A DNA stretch of 63,200 nucleotides, filler included, from Reclinomonas americana ATCC 50394 (GCA_048213135.1; 12 parts of 6 records of this genome joined end to end with filler, not necessarily neighbours in it), one strand, 5' to 3'; shown: positions 2,850 to 58,658, counted from the first letter of the whole stretch. Translations and numbers: made by a program. The notes: a model not told the origin generated them from the letters alone.

Positions 2850-3182
2850 CTCTCTCTCTCGTCTCGTCTCTCCTCCTCTCTCTCTCTCTCTCTATCTCCC
2901 TCACTCTCCCCTTCTCCCTTATTCCCTTGCCCTCTTCTCCCCCTTTCCCCATTCTCCACCCCCCACGCAACAAGCATGCGCACAGCCCCTCAGCTGCATC
3001 GCCGTGGTGAAAAAGTCGTGGCACACGGGACACCTCAACGCCGAGTCCACTTGCGCACACGCCCTCACATGCACACTCGCCCCTCCCACTCCACTCGCCA
3101 CATGCGACCACAACTCCACTCCAACACCCTCGTCTTGTGTGCGCCCCTCAATGCTCAGAGAGAGCGAGGGGGAGGAGGTCAT
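556..3182 (-). CDS. RAD18: RAD18-like C3HC4 RING E3 ubiquitin ligase (spliced; 3' end probably runs off the window start)
   Basis: Exons ~3182-2972, 1906-1836, 1772-1702 and 1104-556 splice in frame with GT-AG. They give VDSALRCPVCHDFFTTAMQLRGCAHAFCSLCVRRYFSASPSNMHCPVCRQPSQPSDLIPVRQLDSVVSAFR, which matches the RAD18 N-terminal RING pattern, followed by an acidic disordered region. The UBZ and SAP domains are not seen in the window. Confidence 0.7.
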
Positions 3183-3228
3183 GGAGAGAGAGAGAAGAAA
3201 GAGAGAAGAGAGAGAGACTTGCAAATAA

Positions 3229-3460
3229 GAGAGACTCTCACACAGAGACTCACAGAGAGGCAGACTGTGTGTCGCAAAGACTCTCACACAGAGAGACTCT
3301 CACACAGTTGCAAAGAGAGACTCGCACAGAGACTCTCACAAAGACTCACAGAGACTCTCACAAAGACTCACAGAGAGACTCACACACAGAGACTCTCACA
3401 CAGACTCACAGAGAGCAACTCTCAGAGACTCTTTGTGACAGAGAGACTCACACAGACTGA
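3229..3460. repeat. GAGACTC(T)CACA-type short tandem repeat
   Basis: Directly visible degenerate ~12-14 bp units upstream of the RAD18-like start. Confidence 0.8.
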
Positions 3461-3756
3461 GAGGCACGCTCAGATATACACACACAGAGAGTGAGAGAAT
3501 GTGTGTGTGATAAAAAATGCGACTTCAAGTCAGTGTGTGCGCGCAAGGCAAACAGCGTGAGTGCGGGAAAGTGACGTCATGCATTGCATTGGGACAGGAC
3601 ACTTGAAGGTGAGTTAAAGAGAGTGGGAATGAGTGCCATTGAATCTTGTGATCGTTGGACCTGTTCCCTGACTTTTGACTCTTCAAGGAAAAAAAAAAGA
3701 AGGCGTCCTCGATGTGACGAAGCACAACAACAACAACAACAAAACACTTTCATTCA

Positions 3757-3869
3757 CCACATTCCAACAATGCGATAAACGCCCACAAATCCCTTGCCGG
3801 CAATGACCTTGGCACACCAACAATATACAAACACATAATTACTTCTCCAACAGTCATCTTCCCTTTTCA
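3757..3869. repeat. Interspersed repeat A, copy 1 (copy 2 at 21857-21973)
   Basis: ccacattcca.aatgcgataaac.cccacaaatcccttgccg.caatgaccttggcaca...cagtcat.ttccctt is shared between the two loci in the same orientation, with few substitutions and small indels. Confidence 0.9.
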
Positions 3870-14300: not shown

Positions 14301-16760
14301 AGGTCTGGGACGAAGTCTACGCCGACCGCAGCATCGTCATCCTCACCAAGACCGGCACCTACGGTGCCCCACTCACTCTCGAGATGTTCTCCGCCATGGG
14401 CATCTCTAGCGATCGAGTTGCGTGCAGCCGACTGAAAAAGAGCGCCTGCAATATCTTGACAGTCCATGATGCAGGTAATCATCAACCCGCCGCCGGTGCT
14501 TGCCCGCAAGGTGTACTTTACGAGCGGCGTCTACTGTTGCTTCCCACACCCACCCATATTGGACGAAATCAGTCGTGTGTTTCACATGCTGCACGGGGAC
14601 ATGGTGCGCGCGGCCATGCGTGAGTTGTTTGCGAGTTGCGTGCCGCCCGTCATCTGAGATCTGGATTCGTGGCGCTCCTTGTGTTCCCTCTTCGGCGATG
14701 CAAATCATTTGGTTGATTTCCTTTCCGAATTACATCTTCTATCTGCTCATCTCTTCCGCAGGTGTCCTTTCTGCTCATCGCTTTCTTTTCCCTTATGAGG
14801 ACATCGCCTTTCAGCTTGCTTTCTTTCTCCTGCACGGTTATCATCACATGCTTTCTCCTGAATCTGAAGTCTTTCTGCTCGTCCTTTCTCGTCTTCCTGC
14901 ATCAGTTCTTCATTCGTGGTTTGCATTTCTGCTCGTCACTTGCTGTTCCCTTGTGAGGACTCTTTCTTCTGCTTGTTTCTCGTCCTTTTCTGTGGACTGT
15001 TTGCCTCACGACTGCCGTTGCTGCTCATCGCTTGCTTCTCTTGTGAGGACGCAGTCTTTTACTTGTTTTTCTTCGCAACTTTTCTGCATCTGTTCTCGTG
15101 AAAGGCGTTGTCCCTCTGCCTGTTTGTCTCGTTTNNNNNNNNNNNNNNNNNNNNNNNNNNNNNNNNNNNNNNNNNNNNTTAATTAATTAANNNNNNNNNN
15201 NNNNNNNNNNNNNNNNNNNNNNNNNNNNNNNNNNAACTTTCTTCTCCCCTCCCTCCCTTCCCCTTCCCCTCCCCTTCCCCTCCCCTCCCTTTCCCCAATC
15301 AAAGGCCGTCGCGAGCGCCTCCTTCCCCCCACTCTCCCCACCCACCCCACTCACCTCCCCTCTCGCCCGCACCGCCGCCTCCTGTACCTGGAACGCGTGC
15401 AGACCCGCGCCCTCGTTAACGAGCACGACGTGTTCGCCATGATCGCCAGCGACTTTCCGCACTTTGAGGTGGTGCGGCTGGCGAACGAGGCGTCGGTGGT
15501 CAGCGGCATTGTGGAGACCAACCTGGCCGACGTTGTGTTTGGTCCGCACGGCGCTGGATTCGCGTACCGGGCTTTCGTGCCGCCGGGGAGGCCATGTGCG
15601 CACGTGGAGATCACGCACGGGGGTGGTCATCCGTGGGAGATGACGTGGAATCCGTGCCAGGTGGTGGTGTCGGCCAGCAAGGTAGGAGGGAAAAGATAGG
15701 GGAAGAATGGAGAGAGAGGGATGCAGTCACTGAGAAAGTGGAAGAGAATGGCAGATGGGGAAAGAAGTAAGGCGCCGCATTCTGCTGGAGACGAGCATTA
15801 AGCTAAGCCTGTCGGAGGTGCACGTGGCGAGGACAACGGAGAGCGAGAGAGAGCGAGAGAGAGAGAGAGACAGAGATTGAGAGAGAGACATATCAGCACG
15901 GCAGTCTGCAGCAAGTTCCTGCCGTCAGTGATTCTGAGTGACGCAAGGTGCTGCCTTTTGTTGTAGGGAAGCATGCGAGAGTTGTTGGCGAGATGCTCGT
16001 TGTTGTGTCTCATGAAGGAAGGAAAGAAAGAGTCTCTCTCTTTGAAAGAGTCTCTCTCTCCTCTTTCCTCGTCTTCTATCCTCTCTTCTCTCTCTCCTCT
16101 TCTCTCTCCTCTCGTCACTCTTCTTCTATCCTCTCTTTTCTTTTCACGCGAATCCTCGCAAGCATGACACGTGCGGCATTCTTATCAGCAGCAGCGTGGG
16201 ATGTAGCTATGTGCTCTGTCTTTTCGTGTTAGATATTGCACTGCATGCTGCTTTGTGAGACATCCTTTCATTCGATATTCTCCTTGCCTTGCTGAGCACC
16301 TGAGAAGGAAGATCGTTGGTTTCACTCTGCCTCACTCACTCTCCACTTCTTCTTCTCTCTTCTTCTATCCTCTCTTCTCTTTTCACGCGGATCCTCGAAA
16401 ACTCGCAGCATCCTTATCAGCCGCAGCGTGGGATATAGCTTTGTGCTCTGTCTTTCGCGTTAGATATTGCACGGAATGTTGCATGTTGGAAAAGACTATC
16501 TCCTGTTCATTGGATACTCCCTTAGCCTTGCTGTATCTCCCACAAAAAGCCGACGTTGATTTCACTCTGCTTCACTCACTCTCTCTATCTGTGTGTCTCC
16601 TTCTCCTCATCCGCAGGGCTGCCGCACCTACGTCTACTTCCAGGACCACGCCTCCTCGCGAACCGACTTGTATGCGCCGGTCGACGCCGTGAGGTGGCTA
16701 CTGCAGCAGGCCGACGACTACCTGTCGTCGAACGACGTGTGGAGTGTGTACGATGTGTGA
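11367..16760 (+). CDS. Glycosyltransferase family 61 (DUF563)-like protein (spliced, 5' end uncertain)
   Basis: Exons ~11367-11690, ~12874-13026, 13511-13711, 14303-14416, ~14475-14603, ~15304-15681 and 16617-16760. The motif LLYLERVQTRALVNEHDV...ADVVFGPHGAGFAYRAFVPPG...HVEI matches the GT61 R-x-x-x-NE and D-V-x-x-G-x-HGAG signatures. Attachment of the two 5'-most exons crosses a gap. Confidence 0.75.
11715..12130. repeat. Intronic minisatellite, ~85-90 bp unit, ~5 copies
   Basis: Repeats of gaatgtgcagtggcgtgaa..ccttgtttgcgagc.gacagttgtcttggtggt.gagagtgagaga..taggcgagggagtga. Confidence 0.9.
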
Positions 16761-17286: not shown

Positions 17287-20200
17287 TCACTCATCACGCT
17301 CGGCCTCCAAGATCTCGTACCGCGCCCCCGAATTGTACAGCGTCACGCCAAAGCGGAAGCCCTCGTCAATCACGACTTGCGAGATGCGCAGGTCTTCGCG
17401 GAGGCGCACAACAGGTGTGGTGAAGGCGTTGATCTTGTAGCGAATGGTCATTTGTCGCATGTCGAGGTCCACTCGCACGACGTCGCCTGTGGGAGGGGAG
17501 TATGTGGGCACAGAGACACTCACGTTTCAAGAGAAGTGTGGGAAAGCAACGGCGAAACAGATTCTCTACGCCGTTTCGGCAACTATCTCAGTTGCGTCAT
17601 TCATCAACACTTCCACCCTTACCACATGTGTGCTCTACTTTCTGGCCTATCGCTCTTTCTACGCATATTTATTCTTGCATTCTATCTCTCTTTTCTTCTG
17701 CTGTTGCCTCCCCCTTCGCGCATTAATTTTAACATGTCTTCCATCCCTCATGCACTAACTCGCCGCCTTACCTCTCCTCATAGGTATATTCGCCTCCTCA
17801 ACTCTATCGCTTATCAAAGAACTGCGAAGGCATCGGTTTCCCATATCTTCCTCTCCCACTCATTCTCCTCTTCACCCTCTCAGCTGGTACGCTCACCTCC
17901 TCTCGACTTCGCCCTCTACTTCGCCTCTTCCTGCTCATGTACCCCGGCACGCTTACATCGCTCTTGTCGTCCCGCTCTTCCCCATATCTCTTCTCCCCTG
18001 TCTTCTTCCCCTTGCTCTTCCCCTTGCTCTGCCCCTTGCTCTGCCCCTTCTCTCTTCCCCTTCCCTTCCCTTCCCCTCTCCTCCCCTTCTCTCTTCCCTA
18101 TCTCTCTCTTCCCTTCCTCTCTTCCCTTCCTCTCTTCCCTTCCTCTCTTCCGCTTTCTACCTGGAATAAAGTTGTACCGCCGCTGACCGGGCGCCCTCGG
18201 GAGAGCAAACGCCAGCGATCCGTACGCGCCATGGTTGATGCCATTCGGTTCACCATCGTGCAGTGCCCACCCGCAGTGATGCAGGCCGCGTGTGTAGTTC
18301 TCACCGCGCGCTGCCGAGGCGTCTGGCGCGAAGCCGATGTAGTAGTACTACGTGGAGTGCGACAGCGTCAGCCACGCGGACGGAGAGAGGCAGAAGGGGA
18401 GGGGAGGGGGGGAGGGAGGGAGGGAAGGAGCGAGAAGGAGCGAGAGAGAGCGAGAACAAGAAAGAGAGAGAGCGAGAACAAGAAAGAGAGAGAGCGAGAA
18501 CGATCGAGAGAGAGAGCGAGAAGGAGCGAGAGAGAGAGAGAGCGAGCAAGAAGTAGCGAGAGAGAGAGAGCGAGCGAGAACGAGCGAGGAGGGAGAACGA
18601 GCGAGAGAGAGAGGGAGAACGAGCGAGAGAGAGGGAGAACGAGCGAGAGAGAGAGAGAGGGAGAACGAGCGAGAGANNNNNNNNNNNNNNNNNNNNNNNN
18701 NNNNNNNNNNNNNNNNNNNNTTAATTAATTAANNNNNNNNNNNNNNNNNNNNNNNNNNNNNNNNNNNNNNNNNNNNGAAGGCAAAACACGCGCATGTACG
18801 TGGAAGAAGGACGCAACGCAGAAGGCGGTGGCGTGCGTCGTGTCGTTCAGCGTGAGCATCTTTCCATTGGCAGAGACGGCCAGGCGGGCATGCTTAAACT
18901 CCTCGGACCATGTGAACTCGTTGCGGTCTGCATGAGAACAAGACTAAGTGTGCGAAGGAGGAGCAAAGGGCGAAGTCCGTCACGATAAATAAGAGAGCGA
19001 GAGCAATTAATGCTGCCTCCTTCCCGGGATGTATGTGCACAAATGTGAGCGTGCGTTTGAATGTGTTTGACGTTCTCGTTCTCCTTCGCCATTTCTGCCT
19101 CTCGCAGTCTCCCACTTTTCCGTCTTTGGTCTCTTCTCTTTTTTTGTCTCCGGACTTCTGTCACTCTCGGTCTTTATCTTCCGTCTCTTGCATCCGGTCT
19201 GTCTCTCTATCTAGTCTTTGCTCTCTTCCTAATCTGGCAACGTGTCTCTTTTTTTGTCTCCGGTCTTCTGTCACTCTCGGTCTACATCTTCCGTCTCTTG
19301 CAACCAGTCTGTCTCTCTATCTCGTCTTTCGCGCTCTTCCAAATCTGGCAACCTGTCTCTTTTTCGTCTCCCGTCTTCTGTCACTCTCGGTCTTCATCTT
19401 CCGCCTCTTGCAACCAGTCTGTCTCTCTGTCTCGTCTTTTGCTCTCTTCCTGATCTGGCAACCTGTCTCATTTTGTCTCCGGTCTTCTGTCACTCTCGGT
19501 CTTTATCTTCCGTCTCTTGCATCCAGTCTGTCTCGCTCTCAATGTCTCTCTCTGTCTGTTAATTTCTCACTCTCCCAAATCGTGTTCTTCATCTACGTCT
19601 CGTCGTCCGTCGTGCACGCGCAATCGCTCTCCCTTCTCACGCTCGGTCTCTCTCAAGACACATGCTCTGTGCCTCATACTGCACTCACCCTTCGACAACT
19701 TGAGAATCAACTCCGCCAAGCGCCGCACCTCAGCTGACTCCGTGGAGGCAGCAGCAATGCGAGGCAGCTCAGCGATGAACCCAGAGTCCACCAGCTGGTC
19801 GGCCACCGCCCACAATCCGACGCCTGTGTTGCGGAATGAGCAATCACACAACCATCATCCCCTCTCTCAGTGCCTTCTGTTATCTCGCAAACACACGTGT
19901 GCATCACTTCTATACCTTTCGTTTCTCCTTATCAGTCTCCTTCCCCCCTCAACTTTTTCCCTCTCCTACTTCAACTGCTTCTCGCTTCTTCTCCCTCTCC
20001 TTCTCCTTCCTCTTCTCCTTCACCTTCTCCTTCTCCTTCTCCTTTCCCCCTTAACCTATTTCCCTCTCCTCCTTCAACCGCTTCTCGTTTCTTCTCCCTC
20101 TCCTTCTCCTTTCTCTTCTCCTTCACCCTCTCCTTCTCCTTCTCAATCTCAATCTTCTTCGCCATCTCCTTCGCCATCTCCTTCTCCTTCTCCTTTCCCA

Positions 20201-22333: not shown

Positions 22334-23214
22334 TCATATCTTCAACCCCGAAGTGCAGTCCCCACTCGTGGCACACGCGGTCGCAATCGACGTGGCCACC
22401 ACACCACTCTTTGGCACACACTGCTTGGTCGACGCAGTAAATGTCCACGACCCGCACGCAGTCAACTGCGAGCACCACAGCGAGCATGCTTGAGGGCCGG
22501 TCGTCGTCTTGATGGCCCACGTGAGATCGCCACCGGGTCGGTCTGCAAACAATGTCAGTCACAGATCTCTCCCTCATCTCTCATCTCTGCGAGGACTCAC
22601 CTGTGCTGGTCAGGAAGCCGCTGCTGTCATAAGCAGCCGCACTTGTCTTTCGTCCCGAAACCAGGCAGAAATGCGAGCCACACACATTGCTGGTTTCTGC
22701 ATTGGCTGCCGTCGCCGGCACAGTGCTCTGCGAGCAACAGGGAGGTGAGCTTGACATTTCCTAACCAACCTTTCTTCGATCACCGATCACGTGCCTTCAG
22801 CGTGCACACACTCATGCCCGACGAGTTCGACACCGCAGCAGCATCCAGGAATGTCCACGATCGACATTGCGAATACTGATCGCACATTTCGCAGCATCCG
22901 ACCTCGCTGGCAACAGCAGGCAGCACAGCAAGGATTGTGCCGCCGGGTCGATCCACGGCCTCGAACAGACACACCTCCAACGCCGCTGCTCGCCATGACG
23001 AAGAGTAAGACGGTCGACAATGGAGTACACTTCAAACTGCAAGCACAACGCAACGAGCCACAACTCCATTCTGCACCGCTGAACAGCCTGTGCCCCAAGC
23101 TATGCAGGCATCCCAATCATCGTCAGTAAGGATCACATGTTCACGTTCAGGCAACACATAACGTGCACAAGAACGTCTGTTATTTACACACACATACACC
23201 GAGAGAGAGAGAGG

Positions 23215-23618: not shown

Positions 23619-26302
23619 GGCAAACATACAGAAGCCAACAACATAATAGCGGGCATGAACGACAGGCTAATGTCCCCACGCTTAGATGCACACTACAGAG
23701 TACAAGAGCCAAATTTTGCACTATCGCTGCTCCGCTCTTCATCATGCTTCACTCTACCCTTGACCCATCAGTCTCAGCGTAACAGTACCGGATCTTCTCC
23801 TATGACCGCTACCCGAGGTATCCTTCCTTCCCTCCCTCCCCCCAGCTCTTCCCCTTCAGACTCTCTCCCTCCCCTTCCTTTCCCTTTTCCTTCCTCCCCT
23901 TCCCCATCACGCACCATACAATATTGTGAACTGCTTGGTGTACGTCAGCACGCCGTCGCTCACTTGCACAAACACTTGCAGTCGCCGACTCAGCGGCGGA
24001 GCCACCGAGATGGTCAGCTGATTACCACCAACTACACTGAAGAGTGCAGAGTGCACACCGCCCACAATGCTGAATGTCGGCGTCTGCCCCGTGTTGAGAT
24101 CCACCATGCTCAGCGTGCCCACTGTGAACGGCACCGTCGCACTCGAGTATGTCTGCGGACCCGACAGCAGAATGTCGCTCGGGCCAACAGTCCCTGCACA
24201 TTCACAAAGACAAAGGTTCAGCATTCTTTCTCAGTCTCCTCTCCCTCTCCCTCACTCTCTCTCTCTCCTTTCAAATGCACCATTCACCTCTCTGTTCAGC
24301 TCCTCTCTCTCTCCATCTCCCTTCTCCCTTCTCTCTGCCCTCACACTCTCCCTCTGCCCTCTCTCTCTATCTCTATCTCTCTTCCTTTCCCTGCTTCTCC
24401 CTTCCCTATTCTCCCTTCCCCTCAGTCTCACCAATCGCGAATGCCGACACCGCCACATATCCCTTGGCAGGCGTCCATCGTGTGCACAGCTCGTACGTGC
24501 CAACAGCAGCACCCGCCGCTCCAATCGTCAGCGTGATGCTGGTCGCACTACCGAATGTGCTGCTGACGGTAGAGCTGGCCACGGCTGTCGGCGGTGTTGT
24601 GGCGCCACAAAGGGGAGTGCCCAACACATACGCCGACGCATCCGCCGAGTTATTGAGCAGACCGGTTCCCGTCAGTGTAATCAACTGGCCAGCCAGTGCT
24701 GATACAAAGGTGGCTGACAGTGATGTCACATTAGGTGCTGCATGCAAAATGGGAAGGCAATCAGCATCATCATGCAAGAACACCTGACGCAGTCAGAACA
24801 GCACGCAACCAGCAATGTTGAGCGTCTGATCGAACGTCATGGCGGGATTGCCATTGTCGGTCGTGCGCACAATCACCACCAACGATGCCGTCACCCCCGC
24901 ACTCGCAAACTGCATCTGATTGCCAGACACAATCGTCACCAATGCGCTGCTCGCACCACCCACCACCGAATACGTGAACGACTGTTGCGAGTCCACATCA
25001 CTCGTGCTCATCGTGCCGATCGCCAGTCCCGCCGTGCTGGGCGGGATGTATGAGCTCGCACTCAATGTCACCGCCGTTGGTGCATTGTTCACTGACGGGA
25101 AGACTTGGTCAGCATCCACACCAAGAAACACACAACACTTTCACAGCGTGCCACTCACCCGACGTCACACTGAATGACTTGTCGACAAACATGGACGGCG
25201 TGCCGTTGTCAAACGAGCGGATCATGACAGCCAGTGGACTCGCCGACTGGCCCGCCGACGTGATCTGCAACTGTGCGCCGCTCAGGGAGAACACGTTGCT
25301 GTTCGCTCCTCCAGTGATGATGTACGTGTACGACTGGCTCCCATTGCTGTCGCTGGTGCTCATCGCACACACAGCCATGTTGGCCGTCGACGGTGCGACA
25401 TACGTGGATGAGCACACAATGTCGGTCGGCACGGAGTTGGAGGTGGTGAATGATAATGTAGAGCCGGTGAGAGTGCTGGGCACGGTGGAGGTGGAGATGG
25501 CACGAAAGTAGTACGTCCAGTTAGCGGCGAGCGATGTGAGTGACACAGAAAGGGCGGTGCTGGAGGCGACGCCGGAGGAGGCCGGGGTGGCCGTGACAGT
25601 GGTGGAGCCAATGGTAAGTCGGCGAATAGTATTGTTGGTGTATTCTACGCGCAAAAGAGTTGACAGTGAGCATCGCGTCAGTCTCACAATCTCCTACCGA
25701 CCGACCTCATACCTGCAATGTATAGTGTGGATGTCGCCGCATCGTACGCCATGTAATGCTGCGCTCAATATGATGCACATGAGATGCAAGCAGGGATTCG
25801 GACTCGCAAGTGAACAGAAACGACGGGGCGAACCGGCGCACTAAATCGAGCAGTCGTGAGAGGGCTCCCGTCAGCCGATCCACCTACTCCCGCAGCACCC
25901 GCGATTGTTGTGACAGCACCCGTGCTAATAACGATTTGACGGATTGTGTGGTTGGCCGCCTTTTAAGGATTGCACGTGATGAATCAGCGCAGACAGCAAG
26001 GATCACAGTGGAAATCGCAACTTCAGAGACGTATAGTACGCCTCGTCCTCGATCTAGCAAGATACCAACAGGTTGGTTGAAGCGGGCGGTAGTGCCTGCG
26101 GCATCTGTCCATCCCGAAGTCCCGGCGAGCGAGCCGGCCAGAGTCGACACAGTCATCGCCAGCATGTCGATTGCGCGAACGTTATTCCCATTACGATCAG
26201 CTGCTCGACACCATAGCATGAGATCCATTCCGCGCATAGAGGGCACCCACGCATTCTCAAACACACGCACGCACGCACACACGCACGCACGCGCACACAC
26301 AC

Positions 26303-37947: not shown

Positions 37948-38899
37948 ATGGACGAGCAAAACTTAGTGCTACATCCGTGGCTGTTCCGAAGCGAGGCGGA
38001 GACGCTGGACGCAGACAGCGCCATGCAGACCATTATGGAGGTGCGTGCCTGCGAGGGAAGGGTGCGCCTCCCTCACTCTTCTCTTCTCTCCGACGTCTTC
38101 CCGTCTTCTGCCTACCTTTGCTCAGCCTGATCGAGTCTTTTGGGACTTGTGGTTTTTCCACTGTCTGTCTCTGCACTGCTTCATGACACCCTGATCAAGT
38201 CTTGCGACTTATCGTCTCGATCTCCCCTCTTATCATTTCTGTCTTGTCGATCCTGCTTCTCTCAGGCATTGCGCCGGAGTTCGATGTTTTATCTCTCGTC
38301 TCACGTTCCACTGTCTGTTCCATGCCTGCACTCTCCGCTCGCCCTTTTTGTTCCCTCATTGCACTCGTGTCCGTCTCCTGCTTCTCTCCTCCTTCACTTC
38401 GTTTACACTCTGATCGTTATCCCGTGTCCTTTGCGTTCTCTGCAGATGGGCATGTACGGCTGCCAGGGCGTCACCGAAACACACATGAGCGACGCCGACA
38501 TCCTGGGCTCCGGCGTCCCATTCGGCTCCATGGCTGAGCGCTTTGTCGGCATTGTTGCGTCTCTCCTCTCACCTCTCTCATCCCTACCCTTCGCGCCTCA
38601 CTATTTTCTCGCAGCACGACTTGAGTTTCTCGCCCGCCAACGCCCAGTTCCGTGTCCTCGACGACTGCGGCATGTACTCGTTCTTTGTTGCCGCGCGCAC
38701 GAGCGACGGACGTCGCCTGGCCTCGTACCACGTGTTCCCCGGCTCCCCCGAGATGGACGAGACGCTCAGCGCGCAAATTGAGGGCGCCTCAACAGTGGGC
38801 GAGCTGCTCGGCCGCCTGACCGACATGGCCAAAGGCAACGAGGTGGCCGAGCTGGCGCTGGGCAGGTTCTGCCAGGTGGTGGAGGCGGGGGCGAAATGA
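37948..38899 (+). CDS. Hypothetical protein, ~160 aa, 3 exons
   Basis: Exons 37948-38040, 38446-38553 and ~38615-38899 join in frame with GT-AG and have GC-rich coding composition. No family recognised. Confidence 0.65.
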
Positions 38900-41840: not shown

Positions 41841-41892
<52 letters not shown>

Positions 41893-42218: not shown

Positions 42219-43215
42219 TTGCTGATTGGTATGTTGTGAGAGAAGGAAATTTCGTGCAAACCTTACACTTTTTCGTTCTTTTGTTAGATCTAGAAGTGTG
42301 GATTGCGTAATCATCAACGGCGACTACACATCGGCTCTTTGCCATGTTTAAATTAAGAATTCGAATTCGAGTTCGCGATCGAAATCTGCGGACTTGCTGC
42401 AGTTTGTAACTTCATTGATATTGTCTGCGCATGCTACAGCTGCTGAGTAGGAGGGGGAAGGTAATTTTTGGGAGAGGAAGGTGACTTGGCCGTTGGACAT
42501 AGCTGATCAGCGCCTTGTCCCACAACGGGTAAAGGGTCAAGGGTCAAGGGTACAGAAACAACGATTCCACGCGTGAGACGAGGCATACAGGGTAGAAAAA
42601 GACGCTGATCACACTCACGAATCGGTTCAAGGGTAAAGGGTTGAGGAAGACACTGATTTCACGTGATTTCAATGCAAATGGACAAATTTAGGCAAGGCGC
42701 TGATCAGCTTTATCCAATGACCGGTGACTTCGCTCCGAGATCGACAGCGCAACAAAGTCCAGCGCCTCTCCCCCTCCTCCTCCTCCTTCTCCATCACTAC
42801 CTGCTCCTGCCAAGGCAGCTGCTCCTGCTGAGTGGGAAGGTGACTTGGGAGAGGAGGGCGAGGCAGCTGCTGCTGAGTCGCTGCTGCGAGAGGCGTGGGA
42901 GCCCTTCGCGCCCATTTGGTGATTGAAAGAGTGAGAAAGAGCAATTTCGTGCAAACCTTACACTTTTCGTGTTGGGAGGTAATGTGGTGTTTGACTTGTG
43001 GGAATCATTGACGGCGATTATACATTGCTGCGGCTGTTTGCCATGTTTCGAATTCGAATTCGCGATCGAAAACTGCGCATGTGGACCAGTTTGTAACTGC
43101 ATGGCTGCCACTGCTGCTGAGCGGGAGGAGGAAGGTGACTTAGCAAAGGAGGAGGAGGCAGCTCCGAGAACGACAGCGCAACAAAGTCCAGCGCCTCTCC
43201 CCCTCCCCCTCCCCC
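42045..43215. repeat. Local duplication/partial triplication of the Kelch gene first exon and upstream region
   Basis: ~42050-42410 is repeated at ~42735-43100, with a third fragment (ccgagaacgacagcgcaacaaagtccagcgcctctcccc) at ~43165-43205. Confidence 0.9.
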
Positions 43216-43518
43216 TATCAGTTTGTATCTGCATCGGCTGCTTCGGGGTTGAAGACAGGAATAACTGGGAAAGGGATCGACACGAACTGTTTGTCATACG
43301 TTGACCACTTCCGCAGTTATTAGCTTACTCTTCTACCTCTTCACCCACACAGATCTGTGACGGTTGCCGACAGCCAAGGTCTCTCATCACAGTGAGCCCC
43401 CACATTCACGATCGTGCAATTGATACAGTTTGCCCCTTCATGTCACACCGCCATGATCGCACGGTGGCTGCAGCACGGTCGTCGTGAACAATGAAATCAC
43501 TGAGAAGCGGCCTTCTTC

Positions 43519-44149
43519 TCACGCGCCCACGCCTCCCATTCGGGCGCCAGCTGCGTGATGATCTCGACGTACTCGCGCATGGCCTGGTCCTTGGACATGC
43601 CTGCACGGAAGGATCGTGAGAGAGTGAGCGAGAGAGAGAGAGAGAGAGAGGGCGCGCGCAAAAAGGGAAATAACGCAACCCTCGACGCTCTTCCATGCGT
43701 CCCACTTGGCGCTGCGAAAGAGGGAAGTGGGAAGGGAAATCGTCAGTGATAGAAAATAGTTATCAGCGATGCGATCCCACAAAAGACCCATTGTACTCTC
43801 CCGTTCTCCCCCCTCTCTCTCTGTTGCTCGCTCACCCTCTTGCTCTCACATTCATTCACTGTCTCTCACAGTGGGCGACAAACGCATCACTAGGGAATAG
43901 CGCAGTAGAATGTGTCCATCGCGTCGCTCTCATGCCTGAAAGCACCCGGCACATATTCGCCACAACGGAGAGAGGAAGACAATGACGAGAGAGATTAGCA
44001 GAAGAAGAAAAGATGCACAGACAACGCAGTGCGAAGCGCAGGAAAAAGAGACTGCACCGCTCTCTATCGCTTCAACATACTCTTCTCCGTAAAGCGTCTG
44101 TGACATGGAAGAGGAAAAACAAGCAAACGAGTGCAAGACTTTTGCCCTG

Positions 44150-44197
<48 letters not shown>

Positions 44198-44655
44198 TCT
44201 CGATCTCTCGCTCGAACACAGTGCACGAAGTTGACGCAGCCATTCCTCACTTCTACTCCCGATGAGAAGACGACTAGCTCATCCTCTCGCCATCGAGCTC
44301 CAACAGTGCTGCAGTCTCCTGTAACAGGAAGACAAGTATCTCTCCCATTTCTCCTCATTCTGTCTCATTTCTCGCAGCCGTCGATCACAGTCTTTGTTTC
44401 TGACTCTTGTGAGAGCTCACTCTGTTCTCTTTTCTCTCCCTCTCTCTCTCNNNNNNNNNNNNNNNNNNNNNNNNNNNNNNNNNNNNNNNNNNNNTTAATT
44501 AATTAANNNNNNNNNNNNNNNNNNNNNNNNNNNNNNNNNNNNNNNNNNNNTCTACTTCTTCTTCTCTTACTTTCTCGTCGACGTCCGGTACGTCTACACA
44601 CGTTCGTTTTCGTTTCGTTCGTACTCTTGTGAGAGCTCTACTCTCTCTTCTTCTC

Positions 44656-44696
<41 letters not shown>

Positions 44697-44893
44697 TTGT
44701 CTGAAACCGAAAGAAAACCAATCACGACACACAACTGATGCAGAAACACTCACACTCACACTCTCTCTCACACACACAAAAGCAAACTTGCATCAGTGCA
44801 CAGAAGCAACAGAGTGAGCAATACGCCAAAAAACACGTCATCATCTCAATCACTTCTCTCTTCTCCTTCTCTTCTCCTTCTCTCTTCTCTCTC

Positions 44894-44925
<32 letters not shown>

Positions 44926-45227
44926 ATACACACACTCACACGCACTCACCGTCCCTCAAACGAAAACATGCCCGGTCGCTCAATGTTCACATTTCCCTCT
45001 GTGGCCTGCTTGAAGCGCGAGTACACTCGCAGCTTGTCATCGTTGCTCAGCGAGATCTGCGGGCCGTCGCGGTACTTGGCGCTCTCTGCAAACAGAGAGT
45101 GAGAGTGAGTGAGAGAGAGTGTGTGCAATGTCGCGCGGGAAAAACTTGTGTGAGAGAGAGAGAGAGAGGGGACGCAACCGCGCACAGTCCACACAGCGAG
45201 GTCAAAGAGCTCTTGCACAGCGGCCAT
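43519..45227 (-). CDS. ACBP: Acyl-CoA-binding protein (complete, 4 exons)
   Basis: The spliced product MAAVQELFDLAVWTVRESAKYRDGPQISLSNDDKLRVYSRFKQATEGNVNIERPGMFSFEGRAKWDAWKSVEGMSKDQAMREYVEIITQLAPEWEAWA carries the hallmark Y..FKQAT.G, PG, AKWDAW and A...YV motifs. Confidence 0.95.
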
Positions 45228-45778: not shown

Positions 45779-45913
45779 AGACTTGTTGGCGATCACTGGT
45801 AGATGCTCATTGTTGTGTATGGATCAGTGAAGTTTCTATTATTATTTATTTAATAGAAACTTCACTGATCCATACACAACAATGAGCATCTACCAGTGAT
45901 CGCCAACAAGTCT
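45779..45913. repeat. Perfect 63-bp inverted repeat with 9-nt AT loop
   Basis: 45779-45841 is the exact reverse complement of 45851-45913; the loop is ttatttatt. Confidence 0.95.
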
Positions 45914-51226: not shown

Positions 51227-51274
<48 letters not shown>

Positions 51275-52501: not shown

Positions 52502-52635
52502 GCTTTTGGTGGCGTTGGGTTTTTTCCTTCTCCTTTTCTTTTCTCTTTCCCGTATGACAGCATCGTGCATGCGTTGTAGTACAGCGACCCTGGAGTGTGC
52601 CGCAATTCTTCATAATTTTCTCGTGATGCGCGCTC

Positions 52636-53896
52636 TCAAGTCTGCGTAATCTCCCTCTCCTTTCTCGTGTACACCTGATCGACGTCCTGCATCGTCGCGT
52701 GCACGGCATTCTCCACCAGCTTGCGAAGGCGCTCCACTTCGTCTTCGCCCTCGCCGGACTTGTTAATGTCGGCCATCCAGTCGCGACGCACGTTGCGCAC
52801 GCGCTGCTTGCACTGCTCGCGCATGGTGGAGGCCGTCTTGACCAGCGCGGTGCGCGTCTCCTGCGACATTTTCGGCAGCGGGATCACCACAGTATCGCCG
52901 TCCACAGAGGGGTTGAGGTTCATGCCGCATTCGCGGATAGAGCGTTCCACGGCGCCGACGATCTGCGAGAGGGAAAGGGTGAGGGTGAGGGAGAAGGGAA
53001 AGGGTGAGGGAGAAGGGGGAGAGGGAAAGGGAAGAGGATCAAAGGGGGAGCAAAGGGAGAAGGCGAAGGGGGTAGAGGAACGGGAAGAGGGATAGGTGCA
53101 AAGGGCGAGGCACAGAGAAAAGCAAACGGGGGAAGCAAAGGGCGAAGCAAAAGGGGGAAGCAAAGGGCGAGGCACAGAGAAAAGCAAACGGGGGAAGCAA
53201 AGGGCGAAGCAAAAGGGGGAAGCAAAGGGGGAAGCAAAGGGCGAAGCAAAGGGGGAAGCAAAGGGCGAAGCAAAGGGAAAAGCAAAGGAAAAAGCAAAGG
53301 GGGAAGCGAAAGGTGAAGCACGGGGCGAAGCAAAGCGGACGCAAAGGGGACGCAAAGGGGACGCAAAGGGAGAAGAGGAAGGGGGAAGCGAAGGGGGAAG
53401 CGAAGGGGGGAACACACAGGGGGAGAGCGAACGGATGATGCGAAGGGTGAAGCAAAGGGCGAAGCAAAGGGGGAAGCAAATGGGGAAAGCGAAGGGGGGA
53501 AGCAAAGGGGGGAAGCAAAGGGGGGAAGCAAAGGCGGGAAGCAAAGGGGGGAAGCAAAGGGGGGAAGCAAAGGTCGAAGCAAAGGGCGAAGCAAAGGGCG
53601 AAGCAAAGGGGGAAGAGCAAGGGAAAGACCAAGGGAGATGATCAAGTTTGAAGCGACAGGGAACGAGCAGAGAAAAGCAGCGTACGAGAGACCCAAAGCC
53701 TCTAGGATGGCAAGAGAACGAGGGGGGAGAAGGCTTTCGCGAGCAGCACACAAGCAGCTCCCATACACACGCACCGACTTGTCATACACCGTAATGGAGA
53801 CGAGCGTGGCACCGCGCACAGCAATCTGCCCGAGCGCCGAGATCGGCTGCGCTTTCTGATTCCCATACGCATCAACACGCACTCCATCAAACATGC
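52636..53896 (-). CDS. MRRF: Organellar (probably mitochondrial) ribosome recycling factor, 5' part in gap
   Basis: FDGVRVDAYG...PISALGQIAV...ITVYDKS spliced to IVGAVERSIRECGMNLNPSVDG...IPLPKMSQETR..LVK...EQCKQRVRNVRRD...KEREI, the classical RRF signature. Confidence 0.93.
53095..53630. repeat. Intronic 12-bp minisatellite (GCAAAGGG(C/G)GAA)
   Basis: Directly visible in the RRF intron. Confidence 0.9.
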
Positions 53897-54208: not shown

Positions 54209-56210
54209 GATCTGTGTGCTCCGGATTTCGTGCTGTGTGCCAGTGAGCTGCATCACTTGTGTCGGTGAGTAATGGTGAGAAAGGCAATGCGCTGGCTTGC
54301 TTGACTCACTCATGTGGCAATGATTGCCAGTGAGCATGTGACGGAGAGTGGATCGGATCTGTGTGGCGATGGGGTCATGTCGGTGGCCACTATGCACGAG
54401 GTTCCGCGTCGATTCCAACTTATGTATAGTAACATGAAGGTTGCGTTATGGGTGTCTATTGATGCACAGTGCATCGCCAGTGATGTTGACATGAGAGAGA
54501 GCACCACAGATTGCATGCCCGCTGTGCCACACACCGATGGTTCGTGTTTGTCATCAAGAGTTTGTCTTGCTGTCTTCCTCACTGGTGGATGAGCAGACGG
54601 TGGGCGACTACTATCGTACACATGGCTTGACGCAGTGCCCGTATGCATGCGAGAGATGTGGACAGCAGATGACACTGGATCGCACGGCAGAGCATGAGTG
54701 GAGTGGATGCTTGCGAGAGTGTCCACTGGGGTGTGGAGCGAGGATGTCACTGAGTGAGATGGTGGAGCACAGCTGGAGTGGGTGCATGCGAGCGTGTCCG
54801 CGTGGATGTCAGCAGCAGTGTTCACTGGCAGAGATGCAGCGGCATCTTGGTAAGTGTGCTTGGAGGAGAGATGTGGAATGATACTGATTTGTTCTCTTGT
54901 TGCAGAAACGGAGTGCCGACTGCAGCACACAGTGTGTCGTGGTGGTGAACTGGGATGTAGATGGCGTGGGATCATTGGTGAGAGGGAGGAGCATGAACGA
55001 GTGTGTGATGTGTTGCGAGTGGAGCGACCACTGCGCGAGGTTTGTGAGAGATGTTGGAGAATGCATTCCGTTGTTCTGATTTGGGGCATGCGTGCACAGC
55101 TGCACGATCGAGTGCGAGAGCTTCCCCAGCTGCAAGTGCAAGTGCGTGAGCTATCTCAGCTCGTGGCTCACGAGAGGGAAGCTAGACAAGCATCTGATGA
55201 GCGACTTGTCGACTGTGTGGGGATGCTTGTCGAGTGCCGCCAGCAACTGGCTGATGAGCGCCAGTCGAGGCAAGCTGAGATTCAGGCTGCTCGTGACCAG
55301 CTGGCTGAAGAGATGCGCATGCGTGAATCTCTCGACAGAGGTGTCACTGAGGTCTGCTACGTGATTGCCTGTGGATTTTTGACTCTTCTTTCCTCATTCT
55401 GTCCCCTATGCATTCGCAGCTTCTCGCCCGTCTCGAGCCGCTGGAGATGCGCGAACGAGCGATCCAGGAGCGGGAGACTGCTGAACGCGAGCGGCTGGCT
55501 AGAGAGCAGGAGGAGCGAGAGCGGCAGGCCAGAGAGCGAGAGGAGCGGGAGCGGCAGGCCAGGGAGCGAGAGGAGCGCGAGCGAGCGGAGAGGAAGATTG
55601 ACAGCGATCTGCTGACTGTGGCAGATGCGCGAGTGGTGCTGCAGTGGGTCCAACAGGCGCGAGGCGGAGGGAGTGTGCCCAAGTTGACGTTACTGTTCAA
55701 GGGCAGTCGAGATGGGTTCAAGGCAGCCACATTCCATCAGCGATGTGACAATCGTGGGTGAGTGATTATTGGAGAGCGACAGCTGAGTACTCGATGGCTA
55801 ATGGATGAGTGACTTTGTGCAGACCGACGCTGATTGTGGGCAAATCGGCAACGGGACGAGTGTGTGGTGGATACACACCTGTGTCGTGGCAGTCTACGGA
55901 CAGCTATATCGCCGATCCATCCGGCACCACCTTCTTGTTCTCCGCGTCGTGGACTGGTGCAAGTGTGCGTCGCTTTTCACCGAAGGAGGATCGGAAACAG
56001 TATGCCGTTTATCACTACTCTGGGCAAGGACCTGCGTTCGGAGGTGGACACGACTTTTACTTGACTGACAGCTGCAACAGCAACAGCAACAGCTCCAGCA
56101 ACCTTGGAAACTCGTACAAGAGCAGCGACGGTGCTGCATATGACACCACGACCCTGATGGGATCGTATAACTTCCAAGTGGCCGACTACGAAGTCTTCCT
56201 CGTCGAATAA
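54209..56210 (+). CDS. TRAF-type zinc-finger, coiled-coil and TLDc domain protein
   Basis: Degenerate RING-like exon, then YSNMKIACPLC and repeated C..C/CP.GC...H...C fingers. An E/R-rich coil follows, then TLDc motifs LLFKGSRDGF...FHQRCDNRGPTL...GGYT..SW...FLFS...GPAFGGGHD...YEVF. Confidence 0.88.
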
Positions 56211-56337
56211 AAACAACACATAAGCTACAAACCCAACGAAACGACGTCCACACACAACCACCAGTTCAACAACGTCGGTTGTCATTCACCACAATCATGT
56301 CCTCACTCACTCACCGCACTCACTCAACAACAAGAGA

Positions 56338-57375
56338 ATGGGCTGCCACCACTCCTCCCACCCTCACCTCACCGTCATCGAACCCACTCCCTCCCACACC
56401 ACCACAACTCGAACCTCTGCCAACAGACTCGAACCACCCGCACCTCCCACTCCACCTCTCCTCGCCCTCCCCCAATCAACCCCACCTACACTCCCCATAT
56501 CATCACATTCTCCTGCCATTCCATCGCCATCTCCTCAACCAGCTGTTCCATCGCATTCTCCTCAGCTGCAACCAACAACAATCATTCAGTCGCAATCTCC
56601 TGCCATTTCCTCGCATTCTCCTGCCACTATTGTTGTTGTGGATCCCAGTCAGGTTCTGGTGCTGGCGACTGCGGCCATGGCCGAATGCAGTGTGACTCGC
56701 GCAGAGGAAGCCTTTTGCGCGTACATGCAACTGGAGTCGAGTGGGCGACACCCGCCCGTGACTCTGAGCAAGACTCTGTTGAAGATCGCGGTGGCGAAGC
56801 ATCAGATTGCGGTGCGACTGGCGGAGCTGGAGAGACACGAGGATTGCTTGCTGTTGTGTGGGGATACGCTGCAGAGGGTGTTGCGGAGGTTGCCGGGGGC
56901 GTGTACGCGCGAGAACCGCATGAAGGCGCATACGACGGCCGCGGTGTGTTGTGCGAGGTTGGGGAGGATTGCGCAGGTGGGTGGGAAATGGGGAAAGGGA
57001 GAGTATGCGTTCTCTGCACTCTCTTGCTCTGTGGCCTTCTTGTCTTGTGAGTGAAAAGGGAGAGGGAGGGGGATGGGGGAGCATGGTGTCTCTTGTCTTC
57101 TTATGTGGCCTTCCTGTCTTGCGAGTGAAGGGGGTTGGAGAGGGATGGGGGAGCATGGTGTCTCTGTGCTCTCTTCCTTTGTAGCTTTCTTGTCTATTGA
57201 GAGAAATGGGGTGGAGAGAGAGAGGGAAAGGGAAGGGAGAGCATGATGTCTCTGCGCTCTCTTCTTCTACTCTATCATCTCTCGTTTCTTTCATTACTTG
57301 CATCGTCTCGTTGCAAGTCGTCTCCTTTCGCCCCTCCCGTCTGGCTCCACTTGCTCTTCTTTGCAGCTGCGTACT

Positions 57376-57418
<43 letters not shown>

Positions 57419-58658
57419 CATCTTTCGCATCTTGGTTTCTCATTCTCACCCCCTCTGCCTCTCTCTCACTCCCCGTCGTTCCTTCTCCCTGTTCATTCCC
57501 CCTTCACCTTCCCCATTCTCCTTCCCCTTCTCCTTCCCCTTCTCTTTCCCCCTTCTCCTTCCCCCCTTCTCCCCCTTCCCCTCTCCCTTCTCCTCCCCCC
57601 CTCTCCTCCTGCTCCTCCTCCTCCTCCCCCCTTCTCCCCCCCTTCGCCCTCACCCTCCCCCCCTCATCTCGCAGGGCCTCGAGCACGAAAAACAAGCCAT
57701 GGAACTCATCCGCCAACTCTACCGCATCGACTGCGTCCACGTCGGCCACGACACCCCCGCCCGCCTGTTCCGTCTCCTCTCCTCCCTTTGTCTTCCCCTC
57801 TCGCCGCCCATCCTTGTGCTCACTGATCCCTCCCTGTGATCAGTGTGGTCCACCCGCAAATCCACGACACTCGAACCCACCACCAATTCTCGCACTCGCT
57901 CCTCACGCTGGCCTGGTTTGCGAGTGCCCTCGACCCACCCACAGACGCCTCTGTCCGGCTCCTCCACTCGTGCGTCGCCGAAATCCTCGACATTATGGAG
58001 TGGGCGCCGAAGCGACTCATCTGGCACCTGGCGTCGCCCGAGCACGGAGTTGGTTGCGTCTCTTGTCCATCCTTTCCTTTCACTGTGCGATTTTCTTCTC
58101 ACCGCTCGTTGCAGACGAAACCAATCTCGAAGAGGCGCTGTCGTTCTTCTACGCCTTTATCACCAACGACTTTGACCAGAAGATCCTCTTTTCGACGCAG
58201 CAGCTGGAGCAGATCCAGGGTACGTCCACCTTGTATTGGAATTCTGACTGCGCGCGGTGGTGTCTCACCACTCGTGCCTGTGCGCAGAGAGTGTGCGTCA
58301 CATTTGGAGCCTGGTGCAGCGCGTGGCCGACTCGAAGAACGACGTGCAGCGCCGCAAAATCTACAAGCGCACCGGCTGGCTCCTGTCGCACATTGAGCAG
58401 CTGTCGCGCCCGGTGCTCGTCGCCGAGTCACCGAGCTCCCGCCGACCGCCATCGGCGCGCCACCACCACCAACGCGCTCACGACGAGGAGGCCGAGCAGG
58501 ACGTGGTCGACCAGGAGGTGGTGACACTGGAGGTGGCGGAGCGCATGGTCGGCAAATCGCCGCTCGACATGGATGGCGATGAGCGAGAAGGGGAAGAGTA
58601 TCACCAGCCGCCGCCTCTGCGCAGGCGGTCGGGCCCGACACCGAGAATACACAGGTGA
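56338..58658 (+). CDS. Hypothetical helical (TPR-like) protein with MGC acylation motif
   Basis: Starts MGCHHS, then a Pro/Ser-rich linker and helical exons joined by GT-AG introns (56338-56976, from 57675, ~57844-58052, 58115-58219, ~58288-58658). Some boundaries are approximate. Confidence 0.6.

What the first reader, a model, noticed from the sequence alone, without database searches (positions are those of the whole stretch)
2966..58058. Recurrent atypical 5' splice-site class GTTGCG(T): the GTGCGT consensus with an extra U at +3
Seen: rebuilding genes from conserved protein motifs puts the intron start at GTTGCG in at least 11 introns of 9 unrelated genes. First intron base: 2971(-), 14417(+), 18817(-), 27968(-), 31079(-), 33520(-), 38554(+), 43679(-), 45178(-), 54440(+), 58053(+). 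Ten of these read GTTGCGT. Related forms occur (GTTGTGT at ~29609, GTTACG at ~59552, GTTTGT at 1835 and 1701), alongside ordinary GTGCGT/GTGAGT donors in the same genes. The ACBP and RING junctions are tightly constrained by protein conservation. Established: eukaryotic donors normally have a purine at +3 and G at +5 to pair with U1 and the U6 ACAGA box; here that pattern is displaced by one base. Inference: the lineage routinely uses a bulged or shifted-register 5' splice site, possibly via variant U1/U6 snRNAs or a relaxed spliceosome.
Basis: partly seen in the sequence, partly recalled or inferred. Interest (0 to 1): 0.78.

Follow-up and report, generated by a model that had tools for sequence, protein, structure and literature searches.

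The report
Second intron-start motif GTTGCGT
In this unidentified eukaryote, many introns appear to start with GTTGCGT instead of the usual GTGAGT or GTGCGT, so the normally fixed G and T sit one base further in, a form that is only a rare exception in humans.

Summary
The core observation holds. GTTGCG is present at all 11 listed positions, and 10 of them read GTTGCGT. The heptamer occurs 18 times, against 6.3 expected from shuffles.

Protein homology fixes five GTTGCGT starts. About eight more are plausible from context. Of the listed sites, 18817 is untestable, 54440 is weak and 31079 is ambiguous.

I ran a gene finder of my own, trained only on ordinary donors. It used T-inserted donors at 7 of 48 sites, against 1 of 146 for A-, C- or G-inserted decoys (p = 2.6e-4). 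It used GTTGCGT at 6 of 18 sites, against 8 of 339 for all other GTNNNGT words (p = 1.6e-5).

In four genes chosen only for their strong Pfam hits, 4 of 9 donors are GTTGCGT. The class is therefore major and discrete.

It is not simply the ordinary consensus plus a U. It nearly always has C where ordinary donors mostly have A. It lacks the preference for G at -1. It pairs poorly with a generic U1 5' end.

The bulged or shifted-register mechanism is plausible but untested. No RNA data, whole genome or snRNA gene was available.

The parts
1907..2971 (-). Intron of 1065 nt in a RAD18-like RING gene. It starts GTTGCGTGG, ends CTCTAG, and holds a long GA microsatellite.
   Evidence: Splicing gives CAHA(F)CSLC...CPVC, a complete C3HC4 RING. 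The exon before matches RING profile positions 1-20. The exon after matches positions 25/26-44.
43601..43679 (-). ACBP intron 3, 79 nt, GTTGCGTTA...GTGCAG.
   Evidence: Splicing gives KWDAWKSVEG|MSKDQAMREYVEI. This aligns without a gap to the transcript-derived relative P0110. Pfam ACBP positions 61-75 lie in the next exon.
33454..33520 (-). Serinc intron 1, 67 nt, GTTGCGTTG...CCGCAG.
   Evidence: Joining MVTFCCCIKIPSR to LIYLAF... extends the match to my Serinc profile to positions 24-213 and adds 4.2 bits. Read-through destroys the match.
32408..33225 (-). Serinc intron 3, 818 nt, GTTGCGTCC...CCCCAG.
   Evidence: The profile positions are continuous across the junction. This donor scores 146.2 bits, against 138.3 for the in-frame alternative 3 nt upstream.
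27901..27968 (-). NHL-repeat intron, 68 nt, GTTGCGTTG...TTCCAG.
   Evidence: Splicing gives [14 protein letters not shown]. Introns sit at the same repeat position at 30325 (GTGAGTG) and 29609 (GTTGTGT). The length is not a multiple of 3, so read-through shifts the frame.
45086..45178 (-). ACBP intron 1, 93 nt, GTTGCGTCC...TTTGCAG. Plausible but not fixed.
   Evidence: Splicing gives MAAVQELFDLAVWTVR(E)SAKYRDG. Two alternative donor/acceptor pairs align to P0110 equally well, with scores 214, 213 and 209.
24738..24809 (-). Intron of 72 nt, GTTGCGTGC...ATGCAG, before a TIG-domain exon.
   Evidence: The next exon starts at TIG profile position 1. My gene finder chose this intron.
38554..38614 (+). 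Intron of 61 nt, GTTGCGTCT...TCGCAG.
   Evidence: The frame is kept and the last exon runs to a stop codon. The gene finder chose it even when trained only on ordinary donors. No homolog was found.
58053..58114 (+). Intron of 62 nt, GTTGCGTCT...GTTGCAG.
   Evidence: The frame is kept. The gene finder chose it. There is no homology evidence.
14417..14474 (+). Intron of 58 nt (or 46 nt), GTTGCGTGC...ATGCAG.
   Evidence: The frame is kept with two possible acceptors. Pfam found nothing on either side.
22986..23054 (-). Candidate intron of 69 nt, GTTGCGTTG...GAGCAG.
   Evidence: The exon after it holds a complete PAN_4 domain (E 4.8e-9). The exon before it is open for 99 codons. Not fixed by homology.
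31004..31079 (-). Candidate intron of 76 nt starting GTTGCGC, after a signal-peptide exon.
   Evidence: It joins [19 protein letters not shown] to AQTVTT.... In-frame GTGTGT donors 9 and 15 nt downstream cannot be excluded.
18777..18817 (-). GTTGCGTCC after an open frame. The intron runs into an assembly gap.
   Evidence: There is no acceptor to test.
54440..54509 (+). Weak candidate, GTTGCGTTA...CACCACAG.
   Evidence: The upstream frame has no recognisable protein and the acceptor is atypical.
29546..29609 (-). NHL-repeat intron of 64 nt starting GTTGTGT, a related displaced form.
   Evidence: Splicing gives [17 protein letters not shown].
52963..53774 (-). Ordinary control: RRF intron of 812 nt, GTGCGTGTG...TCGCAG, full of short tandem repeats.
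55758..55822 (+). Ordinary control: TLDc intron of 65 nt, GTGAGTGAT...GTGCAG.
   Evidence: Pfam TLD positions 11-52 and 53-169 lie in the two flanking exons.
33297..33365 (-). Ordinary control: Serinc intron 2, 69 nt, GTGAGTGCA...GAGCAG.
30245..30325 (-). Ordinary control: NHL-repeat intron of 81 nt, GTGAGTGTG...CCGCAG, at the same repeat position as 29609 and 27968.
43712..44949 (-). Ordinary control: ACBP intron 2, GTGAGTGCG...TTCGCAG. It spans the assembly gap at 44451-44550.
   Evidence: Splicing gives FEGR|AKWDAW, which aligns without a gap to P0110.
1773..1835 (-). Second intron of the RING gene, 63 nt, GTTTGTGTG...GTGCAG. It has U at +3 in the ordinary register.
   Evidence: The frame continues CPVCRQ|PSQPSDLIPVRQLD.

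Best explanation
GTTGCGT is a genuine, discrete and frequent 5' splice site of ordinary GT-AG introns in this organism. It is used side by side with GTGAGTG/GTGCGTG donors, even within one gene and at equivalent positions of paralogous repeats.

The cut is before the first G. The G and U that normally sit at +5 and +6 sit at +6 and +7. The spliceosome must therefore read these sites with one extra nucleotide, always U, between the GU at the cleavage site and the downstream GCGU.

The most likely way this works is a one-nucleotide bulge (+2 or +3) or a shifted register in the pairing with U1, and later with U6. It may be helped by lineage-specific snRNA sequence.

Shown here: the motif, its position at exon ends, its discreteness and its specificity for T. 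Inferred: the pairing register and the snRNA involved.
For: - Enrichment: 18 occurrences against 6.3 expected.
- Five junctions are fixed to within a codon by independent protein evidence:
  - RING halves split across two exons.
  - The ACBP product aligns without gaps to a transcript-derived relative.
  - The spliced Serinc product scores 150.4 bits and is collinear with a profile of 41 homologs. The donor at 33225 beats its in-frame neighbour by 7.9 bits.
  - The NHL repeat junction at 27968.
- Decoy controls, using a gene finder trained only on ordinary donors: T-insert 7 of 48 used against 1 of 146 for A/C/G-inserts, p = 2.6e-4. GTTGCGT 6 of 18 used against 8 of 339 for all other GTNNNGT words, p = 1.6e-5.
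- In genes picked only for their strong Pfam hits (Serinc, ACBP, RRF, TLDc), 4 of the 9 donors that could be resolved are GTTGCGT.
- Ten such introns share only the 5' heptamer, a CTCAC-like element and a GCAG 3' end. Ordinary-donor introns have the same features.
- A register with a bulge at +2/+3 has been shown for human 5' splice sites (PMC4856993; passages read).
Against: - There is no RNA evidence. No RNA run was listed, so no junction is shown at the transcript level.
- The window is only 63 kb, and the whole genome is not held.
- The gene finder is my own and crude. It missed 5 homology-backed sites and made some doubtful calls: 17591 with an AAG acceptor, and 14635.
- Three of the 11 listed sites are ambiguous, untestable or weak.
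- Against a simple bulge on the usual consensus: ordinary donors have A after GTG in 9 of 14 cases, while the displaced class has C in 10 of 10 (p = 0.002). None of the 7 GTTGAGT occurrences was chosen.
- G at -1 is found in 4 of 10 displaced donors against 13 of 16 ordinary ones (p = 0.046).
- With a generic U1 5' end (recalled, not this organism's own), GUUGCGU gives -5.6 kcal/mol and no bulged helix. GUUGAGU gives -8.4 and GUGAGU -13.3.
- The donor lists behind the two comparisons mix curated calls with gene-finder calls.
Confidence: 0.8

Rival explanations
1. A dedicated or variant snRNA reads GUUGCGU by full complementarity, with no bulge. One example would be a second U1 with a 5' end complementary to GUUGCGU. 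That would give the major spliceosome two parallel 5' splice-site codes.
For: - The class is invariant over seven bases. It prefers C where ordinary donors prefer A, and it does not need G at -1.
- A generic U1 5' end pairs poorly with it.
- GTTGAGT is not used.
Against: - No snRNA gene could be examined.
- The 3' ends and branch-like elements are the same as in ordinary introns.
- Both classes occur in the same genes.
- A single U1 with a slightly different 5' end could also explain it.
Confidence: 0.2
2. The junctions are misplaced and the motif is a chance or compositional feature. The real donors would lie nearby at ordinary GT sites.
For: - Several sites have in-frame alternatives: 31079, 45178 and 33225.
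- GTGGCGT occurs 14 times and GTCGCGT 12 times, so these related words are also common.
- Tests using only codon usage or open frames did not single out any donor word, ordinary ones included.
- An order-3 Markov expectation did not place GTTGCGT among the 25 most enriched GT heptamers.
Against: - At 2971, 43679, 27968 and 33225, homology leaves no other GT-AG solution or favours this donor.
- The decoy words were almost never chosen.
- The excess over shuffles equals the number of inferred donors.
Confidence: 0.06
3. Assembly or sequencing artefact: a T is over-called in true GTGCGT donors of a fragmented draft assembly.
For: - The assembly is highly fragmented.
- An extra T inside an intron would not disturb any reading frame.
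Against: - The error would have to hit 18 sites while 57 GTGCGT sites stay intact.
- The class differs from ordinary donors at -1 and in A against C.
- GTTGTGT is also used.
Confidence: 0.03
4. The heptamer is the conserved end of an old family of transposon-derived introns (introners), and not a separate recognition class.
For: - The 5' end is invariant.
- Many of the introns fall in a narrow size range of 58-93 nt.
Against: - The 10 aligned introns share no interior or 3' sequence.
- Lengths run from 58 to 1065 nt.
- Even on this reading, the motif would still have to work as a splice site.
Confidence: 0.04

Closest known systems
Human 5' splice sites read by U1 with a bulged nucleotide at +2/+3 (Roca et al. 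2012, as cited and extended in Tan et al. 2016, PMC4856993; passages read)
   Same: GU is followed by an extra U. The rest of the site then matches the consensus one position later. The cut is still before the first G.
   Different: The table in that paper lists only 68 predicted human sites for this register, 54 after curation. Here the class is roughly a quarter to 4 in 10 of the introns that could be judged. It is invariant over seven bases, and it prefers a base (C) that the ordinary class does not. Its register has not been tested.
Shifted-register 5' splice sites (Roca and Krainer 2009, as described in PMC4856993)
   Same: All downstream pairs are moved by one position relative to the cleavage site.
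   Different: In the shifted register the first G pairs as if it were at -1. That could fit the weak G at -1 seen here, but nothing here separates this register from a bulge.
Strongly constrained GTGCGTG donors of Mamiellophyceae green algae (PMC2483917 and PMC3879977; passages read)
   Same: A lineage-specific extended donor consensus containing GCGT.
   Different: Those are in the ordinary register with G at +3. No displaced GTTGCGT class is mentioned in the passages I read. This window has a different composition and gene density.
U12-type (minor spliceosome) introns
   Same: A second, discrete and highly conserved 5' splice-site motif beside the major one.
   Different: The U12-type donor motif (recalled: RTATCCTT) is unrelated. 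The 3' ends here are the same as in ordinary introns.

Membership tests
GT-AG spliceosomal intron (U2-type) | GT at the 5' end and AG at the 3' end | tested here: met
   All 10 aligned introns start with GT and end with CAG, and 9 of the 10 end with GCAG. The 2971 intron ends with TAG.
GT-AG spliceosomal intron (U2-type) | Removal restores a continuous protein that is collinear with homologs | tested here: met
   Met for 2971, 27968, 33225, 33520 and 43679. Not shown for the other sites.
GT-AG spliceosomal intron (U2-type) | Branch-point-like element upstream of the acceptor | tested here: inconclusive
   CTCAC- or CTGAC-like words lie 10-35 nt before the AG in most of the introns. I made no statistical test, and CT-rich repeats make such words common.
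GT-AG spliceosomal intron (U2-type) | The spliced junction is seen in RNA | not testable with these tools
   No RNA run was listed.
Bulged (+2/+3) register 5' splice site | The site matches the ordinary consensus once one nucleotide is skipped | tested here: met
   GT[T]GCGT reduces to GTGCGT, an ordinary donor here. The inserted base is specifically T.
Bulged (+2/+3) register 5' splice site | The bulged pairing to U1 is more stable than the ordinary register | tested here: inconclusive
   With a generic, recalled U1 5' end, RNAduplex forms no bulged helix for GUUGCGU (-5.6 kcal/mol) but does for GUUGAGU (-8.4). This organism's own U1 is unknown.
Bulged (+2/+3) register 5' splice site | Rescue by compensatory U1 mutations in the bulged register only | not testable with these tools
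   This is an experiment.
U12-type intron | RTATCCTT-like 5' splice site | tested here: not met
   The sites read GTTGCGT. The U12 motif is recalled.
Introner / transposon-derived intron family | Sequence similarity along the intron between copies | tested here: not met
   Only the 5' heptamer and the 3' GCAG are conserved in 10 introns. Mean column identity is 44%.

The most novel reading that the evidence does not exclude
This lineage runs two parallel 5' splice-site codes in its major spliceosome: GUG(A/C)GUG and an invariant GUUGCGU. The second is used by about a third of introns. It is read by a dedicated U1 variant, or by an altered U1/U6 register that needs the extra U and the C. That would make it a third kind of intron class beside U2-type and U12-type.
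Probability: 0.18. Interest if true: 0.85.

Novelty: new variant of a known kind. Interest (0 to 1): 0.66.

Why it matters
A purine at +3 and G at +5 are among the most constant features of intron starts across eukaryotes. Bulged or shifted sites are known in humans, but only as rare exceptions.

A lineage in which a displaced, seven-base invariant donor serves a large share of introns would be a natural experiment. It could show how U1 and U6 measure the distance from the cleavage site.

It would also matter in practice. Gene predictors with a single position-weight donor model would misplace these exon ends, so annotation of this genome and its relatives would need a two-class donor model.

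Tried and rejected
- **RNA evidence.** One look-up for RNA runs holding 39642-44450 listed none, so no reads could be laid.
- **Whole genome.** None is held, so no genome-wide donor census or snRNA search was possible.
- **Rfam.** There was no hit at gathering thresholds. At E <= 1 there were only hairpin and low-complexity matches and no spliceosomal RNA. No tRNA was found.
- **Earlier findings of this scan.** Nothing was found by place, words or sequence.
- **Unbiased intron census, failed attempts:**
  - A k-mer ranking against an order-3 Markov model was dominated by microsatellites and did not list GTTGCGT among the top 25 GT heptamers.
  - Three tests did not enrich even the ordinary donors: coding flanks by codon usage, drop in coding signal, and open frames on both sides.
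  - Viterbi gene finders with free GT donors were too noisy.
  - Self-training with a learned donor model stalled. One earlier run timed out.
- **Homolog searches with no result.** The Serinc exon against longer proteins and the last exon of the 38554 gene found nothing. A metagenome scan with an NHL exon gave only one distant locus at 36% identity.
- **ACBP junction 1.** It could not be resolved against P0110; the three variants score within 5 points of each other.
- **Literature word searches.** Searches for GTGCGT with 'intron' and 'splice site', for GUUGCG, and for GTTGCGT with 'intron' found no description of this donor. The hits for the last two were primers and unrelated sequences. This is not proof that it is unpublished.

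Full report
**What the window is.** The 63.2 kb window is a scaffold of small contigs. They are joined by 44 N, TTAATTAATTAA and 44 N, and there are seven larger N runs; 4986 bases in all are N. It is eukaryotic. It has short CT-rich introns and some long introns filled with micro- and minisatellites. No whole genome is held for it. No RNA run was listed. It holds no tRNA or Rfam family at curated thresholds. Few open reading frames match Pfam. The clear matches are Serinc, ACBP, RRF, TLDc, ankyrin, NHL, TIG, GT61, RING and PAN. The best Serinc relative among 1.84 billion representative proteins has E = 1e-8, so close relatives are not in that library.

**The observation.** GTTGCG is present at all 11 listed positions on the stated strand. 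Ten read GTTGCGT and 31079 reads GTTGCGC. GTTGCGT occurs 18 times on both strands. Dinucleotide-preserving shuffles give 6.30 +/- 2.37, and none of 100 reached 18. An order-3 Markov expectation, in a ranking dominated by microsatellites, did not place it among the top 25 GT heptamers. Raw counts of GTGGCGT (14) and GTCGCGT (12) are not far below it. Word counts alone therefore do not settle the matter.

**Junctions fixed by protein evidence.**
- *RING gene, 2971(-).* The exon ending at 2972 encodes CPVCHDFFTTAMQLRGCAHA and matches RING profile positions 1-20. The only downstream CxxC...CxxC lies at 1904. It is preceded by CTCTAG and matches profile positions 25/26-44. Splicing GCTT|GTTGCGTGG...CTCTAG|TTTGT gives CAHA-F-CSLC, a complete C3HC4 finger. 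The intron is 1065 nt.
- *ACBP gene.* It spans the gap at 44451-44550. Its donors are GTTGCGT (45178), GTGAGTG (44949) and GTTGCGT (43679). The spliced product reads FEGR|AKWDAWKSVEG|MSKDQAMREYVEI. It aligns without a gap to P0110, an 85-residue ACBP from a transcriptome that is 65% identical to exon 2. The first junction (45178) is not resolved. Three donor/acceptor combinations score 214, 213 and 209.
- *Serinc gene.* I built a profile from 41 full-length homologs, chosen by length (390-490 residues) from the 106 returned. The product spliced at 33520 (GTTGCGT), 33365 (GTGAGTG) and 33225 (GTTGCGT) scores 150.4 bits and is collinear with profile positions 24-213. Leaving out the first exon gives 146.2 bits. 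Using the in-frame donor 3 nt upstream of 33225 gives 138.3 bits. Reading through the first intron destroys the match.
- *NHL gene.* Three paralogous repeats carry an intron at the same position. They are IIYVAD|LPNYAVR (GTGAGTG, 30325), VVYVAD|AGNRIVR (GTTGTGT, 29609) and YMYITD|QSNNAIR (GTTGCGT, 27968).
- *Ordinary controls fixed the same way.* RRF has GTGCGTG (53774). TLDc has GTGAGTG (55758), with profile positions 52|53 split across its two exons.

**Other sites.**
- 24809 precedes an exon that starts at TIG profile position 1.
- 23054 precedes an exon holding a whole PAN_4 domain.
- 38554, 58053 and 14417 keep the frame and have GCAG acceptors, but no homolog was found.
- 31079 joins a convincing signal peptide to the NHL protein, but in-frame GTGTGT donors lie 9 and 15 nt downstream.
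- 18817 runs into a gap.
- 54440 is weak.
- 567 looks like a donor whose intron leaves the window.
- 11597 and 46780 look like chance occurrences.
- 14635 and 17591 were picked by my gene finder but are doubtful.

About 13 of the 18 occurrences are therefore likely or plausible donors. This matches the excess of about 12 over shuffles.

**Controls.** Attempts at a donor-blind intron census failed. I therefore used decoy classes.

I wrote a simple Viterbi gene finder. It used a periodic Markov coding model, an intron composition model that ignores the first 10 intron bases, and an acceptor matrix. I trained it only on introns with ordinary GT[AG]NGT donors.

In the first test it was allowed ordinary donors plus GT-N-[AG]NGT for each inserted base N. 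It used 14 ordinary donors. It used 7 of 48 T-insert sites, 1 of 74 G-insert, 0 of 48 C-insert and 0 of 24 A-insert sites. T against the rest gives p = 2.6e-4.

In the second test all GTNNGT and GTNNNGT words were allowed, 861 and 357 sites. It used GTGAGT 6 times, GTGCGT 4 times and GTTGCGT 6 times out of 18 occurrences. The other displaced heptamers were used 8 times out of 339 occurrences, none more than once (p = 1.6e-5).

The finder is crude. It found only 22-33 introns, missed five of the homology-backed sites and made some doubtful calls.

**How common.** In the four genes chosen only for strong Pfam hits, the counts are Serinc 2 of 4, ACBP 2 of 3 (one ambiguous), RRF 0 of 1 and TLDc 0 of 1. 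That is 4 of 9 resolvable donors reading GTTGCGT. In the gene finder's output the share is 6-7 of 22. This is a major class, not an occasional variant.

**What kind of class.**
- The ten aligned introns share only the heptamer, a CTCAC-like element and a GCAG 3' end. Ordinary-donor introns have the same 3' features. They are therefore not copies of one element.
- T at +3 always comes with G, C (once T), G and T at +4 to +7, so a position-independent model cannot produce the class.
- It is not simply the ordinary consensus plus U. Ordinary donors have A after GTG in 9 of 14 cases, while the displaced class has C in 10 of 10 (p = 0.002). None of the 7 GTTGAGT occurrences was chosen. G at -1 is found in 4 of 10 displaced donors against 13 of 16 ordinary ones (p = 0.046). 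These lists mix curated and gene-finder calls.
- U at +3 is also tolerated in the ordinary register. The RING gene has a GTTTGTG donor at 1835.

**Mechanism.** A register with a bulge at +2/+3 and a shifted register are both established for human sites. The paper's table lists only 68 predicted +2/+3 sites, 54 after curation (PMC4856993; passages read).

Reading GU[U]GCGU this way restores the same pairs as GUGCGU. However, with a generic U1 5' end (recalled, not this organism's own), RNAduplex gives -5.6 kcal/mol for GUUGCGU and forms no bulged helix. GUUGAGU gives -8.4, GUGCGU -8.9 and GUGAGU -13.3.

The preference for C and the weak G at -1 therefore hint at lineage-specific snRNA sequence or a different register. 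This cannot be tested without the genome.

**Rivals.** Misplaced junctions, an over-called T, and old introner ends are each unlikely. The reasons are given in the rival explanations.

**Literature.** Word searches found the GTGCGTG consensus of Mamiellophyceae (passages read) and the human register work. They found no description of a GTTGCGT donor class. That is not proof that none exists.

**Verdict.** The motif class is real, discrete and frequent in this window.

Noticed in passing
window 12721-12820, 15135-15234, 18677-18776 and 11 more such places: Contigs are joined by 44 N, TTAATTAATTAA and 44 N. Seven larger N runs of 442-907 bases also occur. Gene order across joins is real in at least one case: the ACBP gene spans 44451-44550.
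   Followed up: partly
window 52990-53700 (-): The 812-nt RRF intron is almost wholly made of tandem copies of a unit of about 12 nt (CCCTTTGCTTCG-like). The 1065-nt RING intron holds a long GA microsatellite. Long introns here appear to be repeat expansions.
   Followed up: no
window 45780-45912: A near-perfect palindrome of about 130 nt, next to a contig end. It scores equally on both strands against several miRNA hairpin models, all below their curated thresholds. It may be an assembly artefact or a hairpin.
   Followed up: no
window 1773-1835 and 1701 (-): The RAD18-like RING gene has a 63-nt intron starting GTTTGTG at 1835, which keeps the frame. A second GTTTGTG follows the next exon at 1701, but its intron was not tested. 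U at +3 therefore seems tolerated in the ordinary register too, and GTTTGT is somewhat over-represented (44 against 24.7).
   Followed up: partly
acceptors of the introns listed under parts: The base at -4 of the acceptor is G in 9 of 10 aligned introns (GCAG). Most ordinary-donor introns show the same. This is an unusually extended 3' splice-site consensus.
   Followed up: partly
window 27901-30325 (-): Three NHL repeats of one secreted protein each carry an intron right after the conserved D of YVAD/YITD. The three donors differ: GTGAGTG, GTTGTGT and GTTGCGT.
   Followed up: yes
window 11600-12650 (+): Conceptual translations repeat with a period of about 29 residues, which suggests a minisatellite of about 87 nt. 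The GTTGCGT at 11597 sits at its edge and does not look like a donor.
   Followed up: no
window 31637-32047 (-): The Serinc match stops at profile position 213 of 422. No exon for the C-terminal half was found before the gap at 31537-31636. The acceptor my gene finder chose (31748) runs into a stop after 8 codons. The rest of the gene is probably missing from the assembly.
   Followed up: partly
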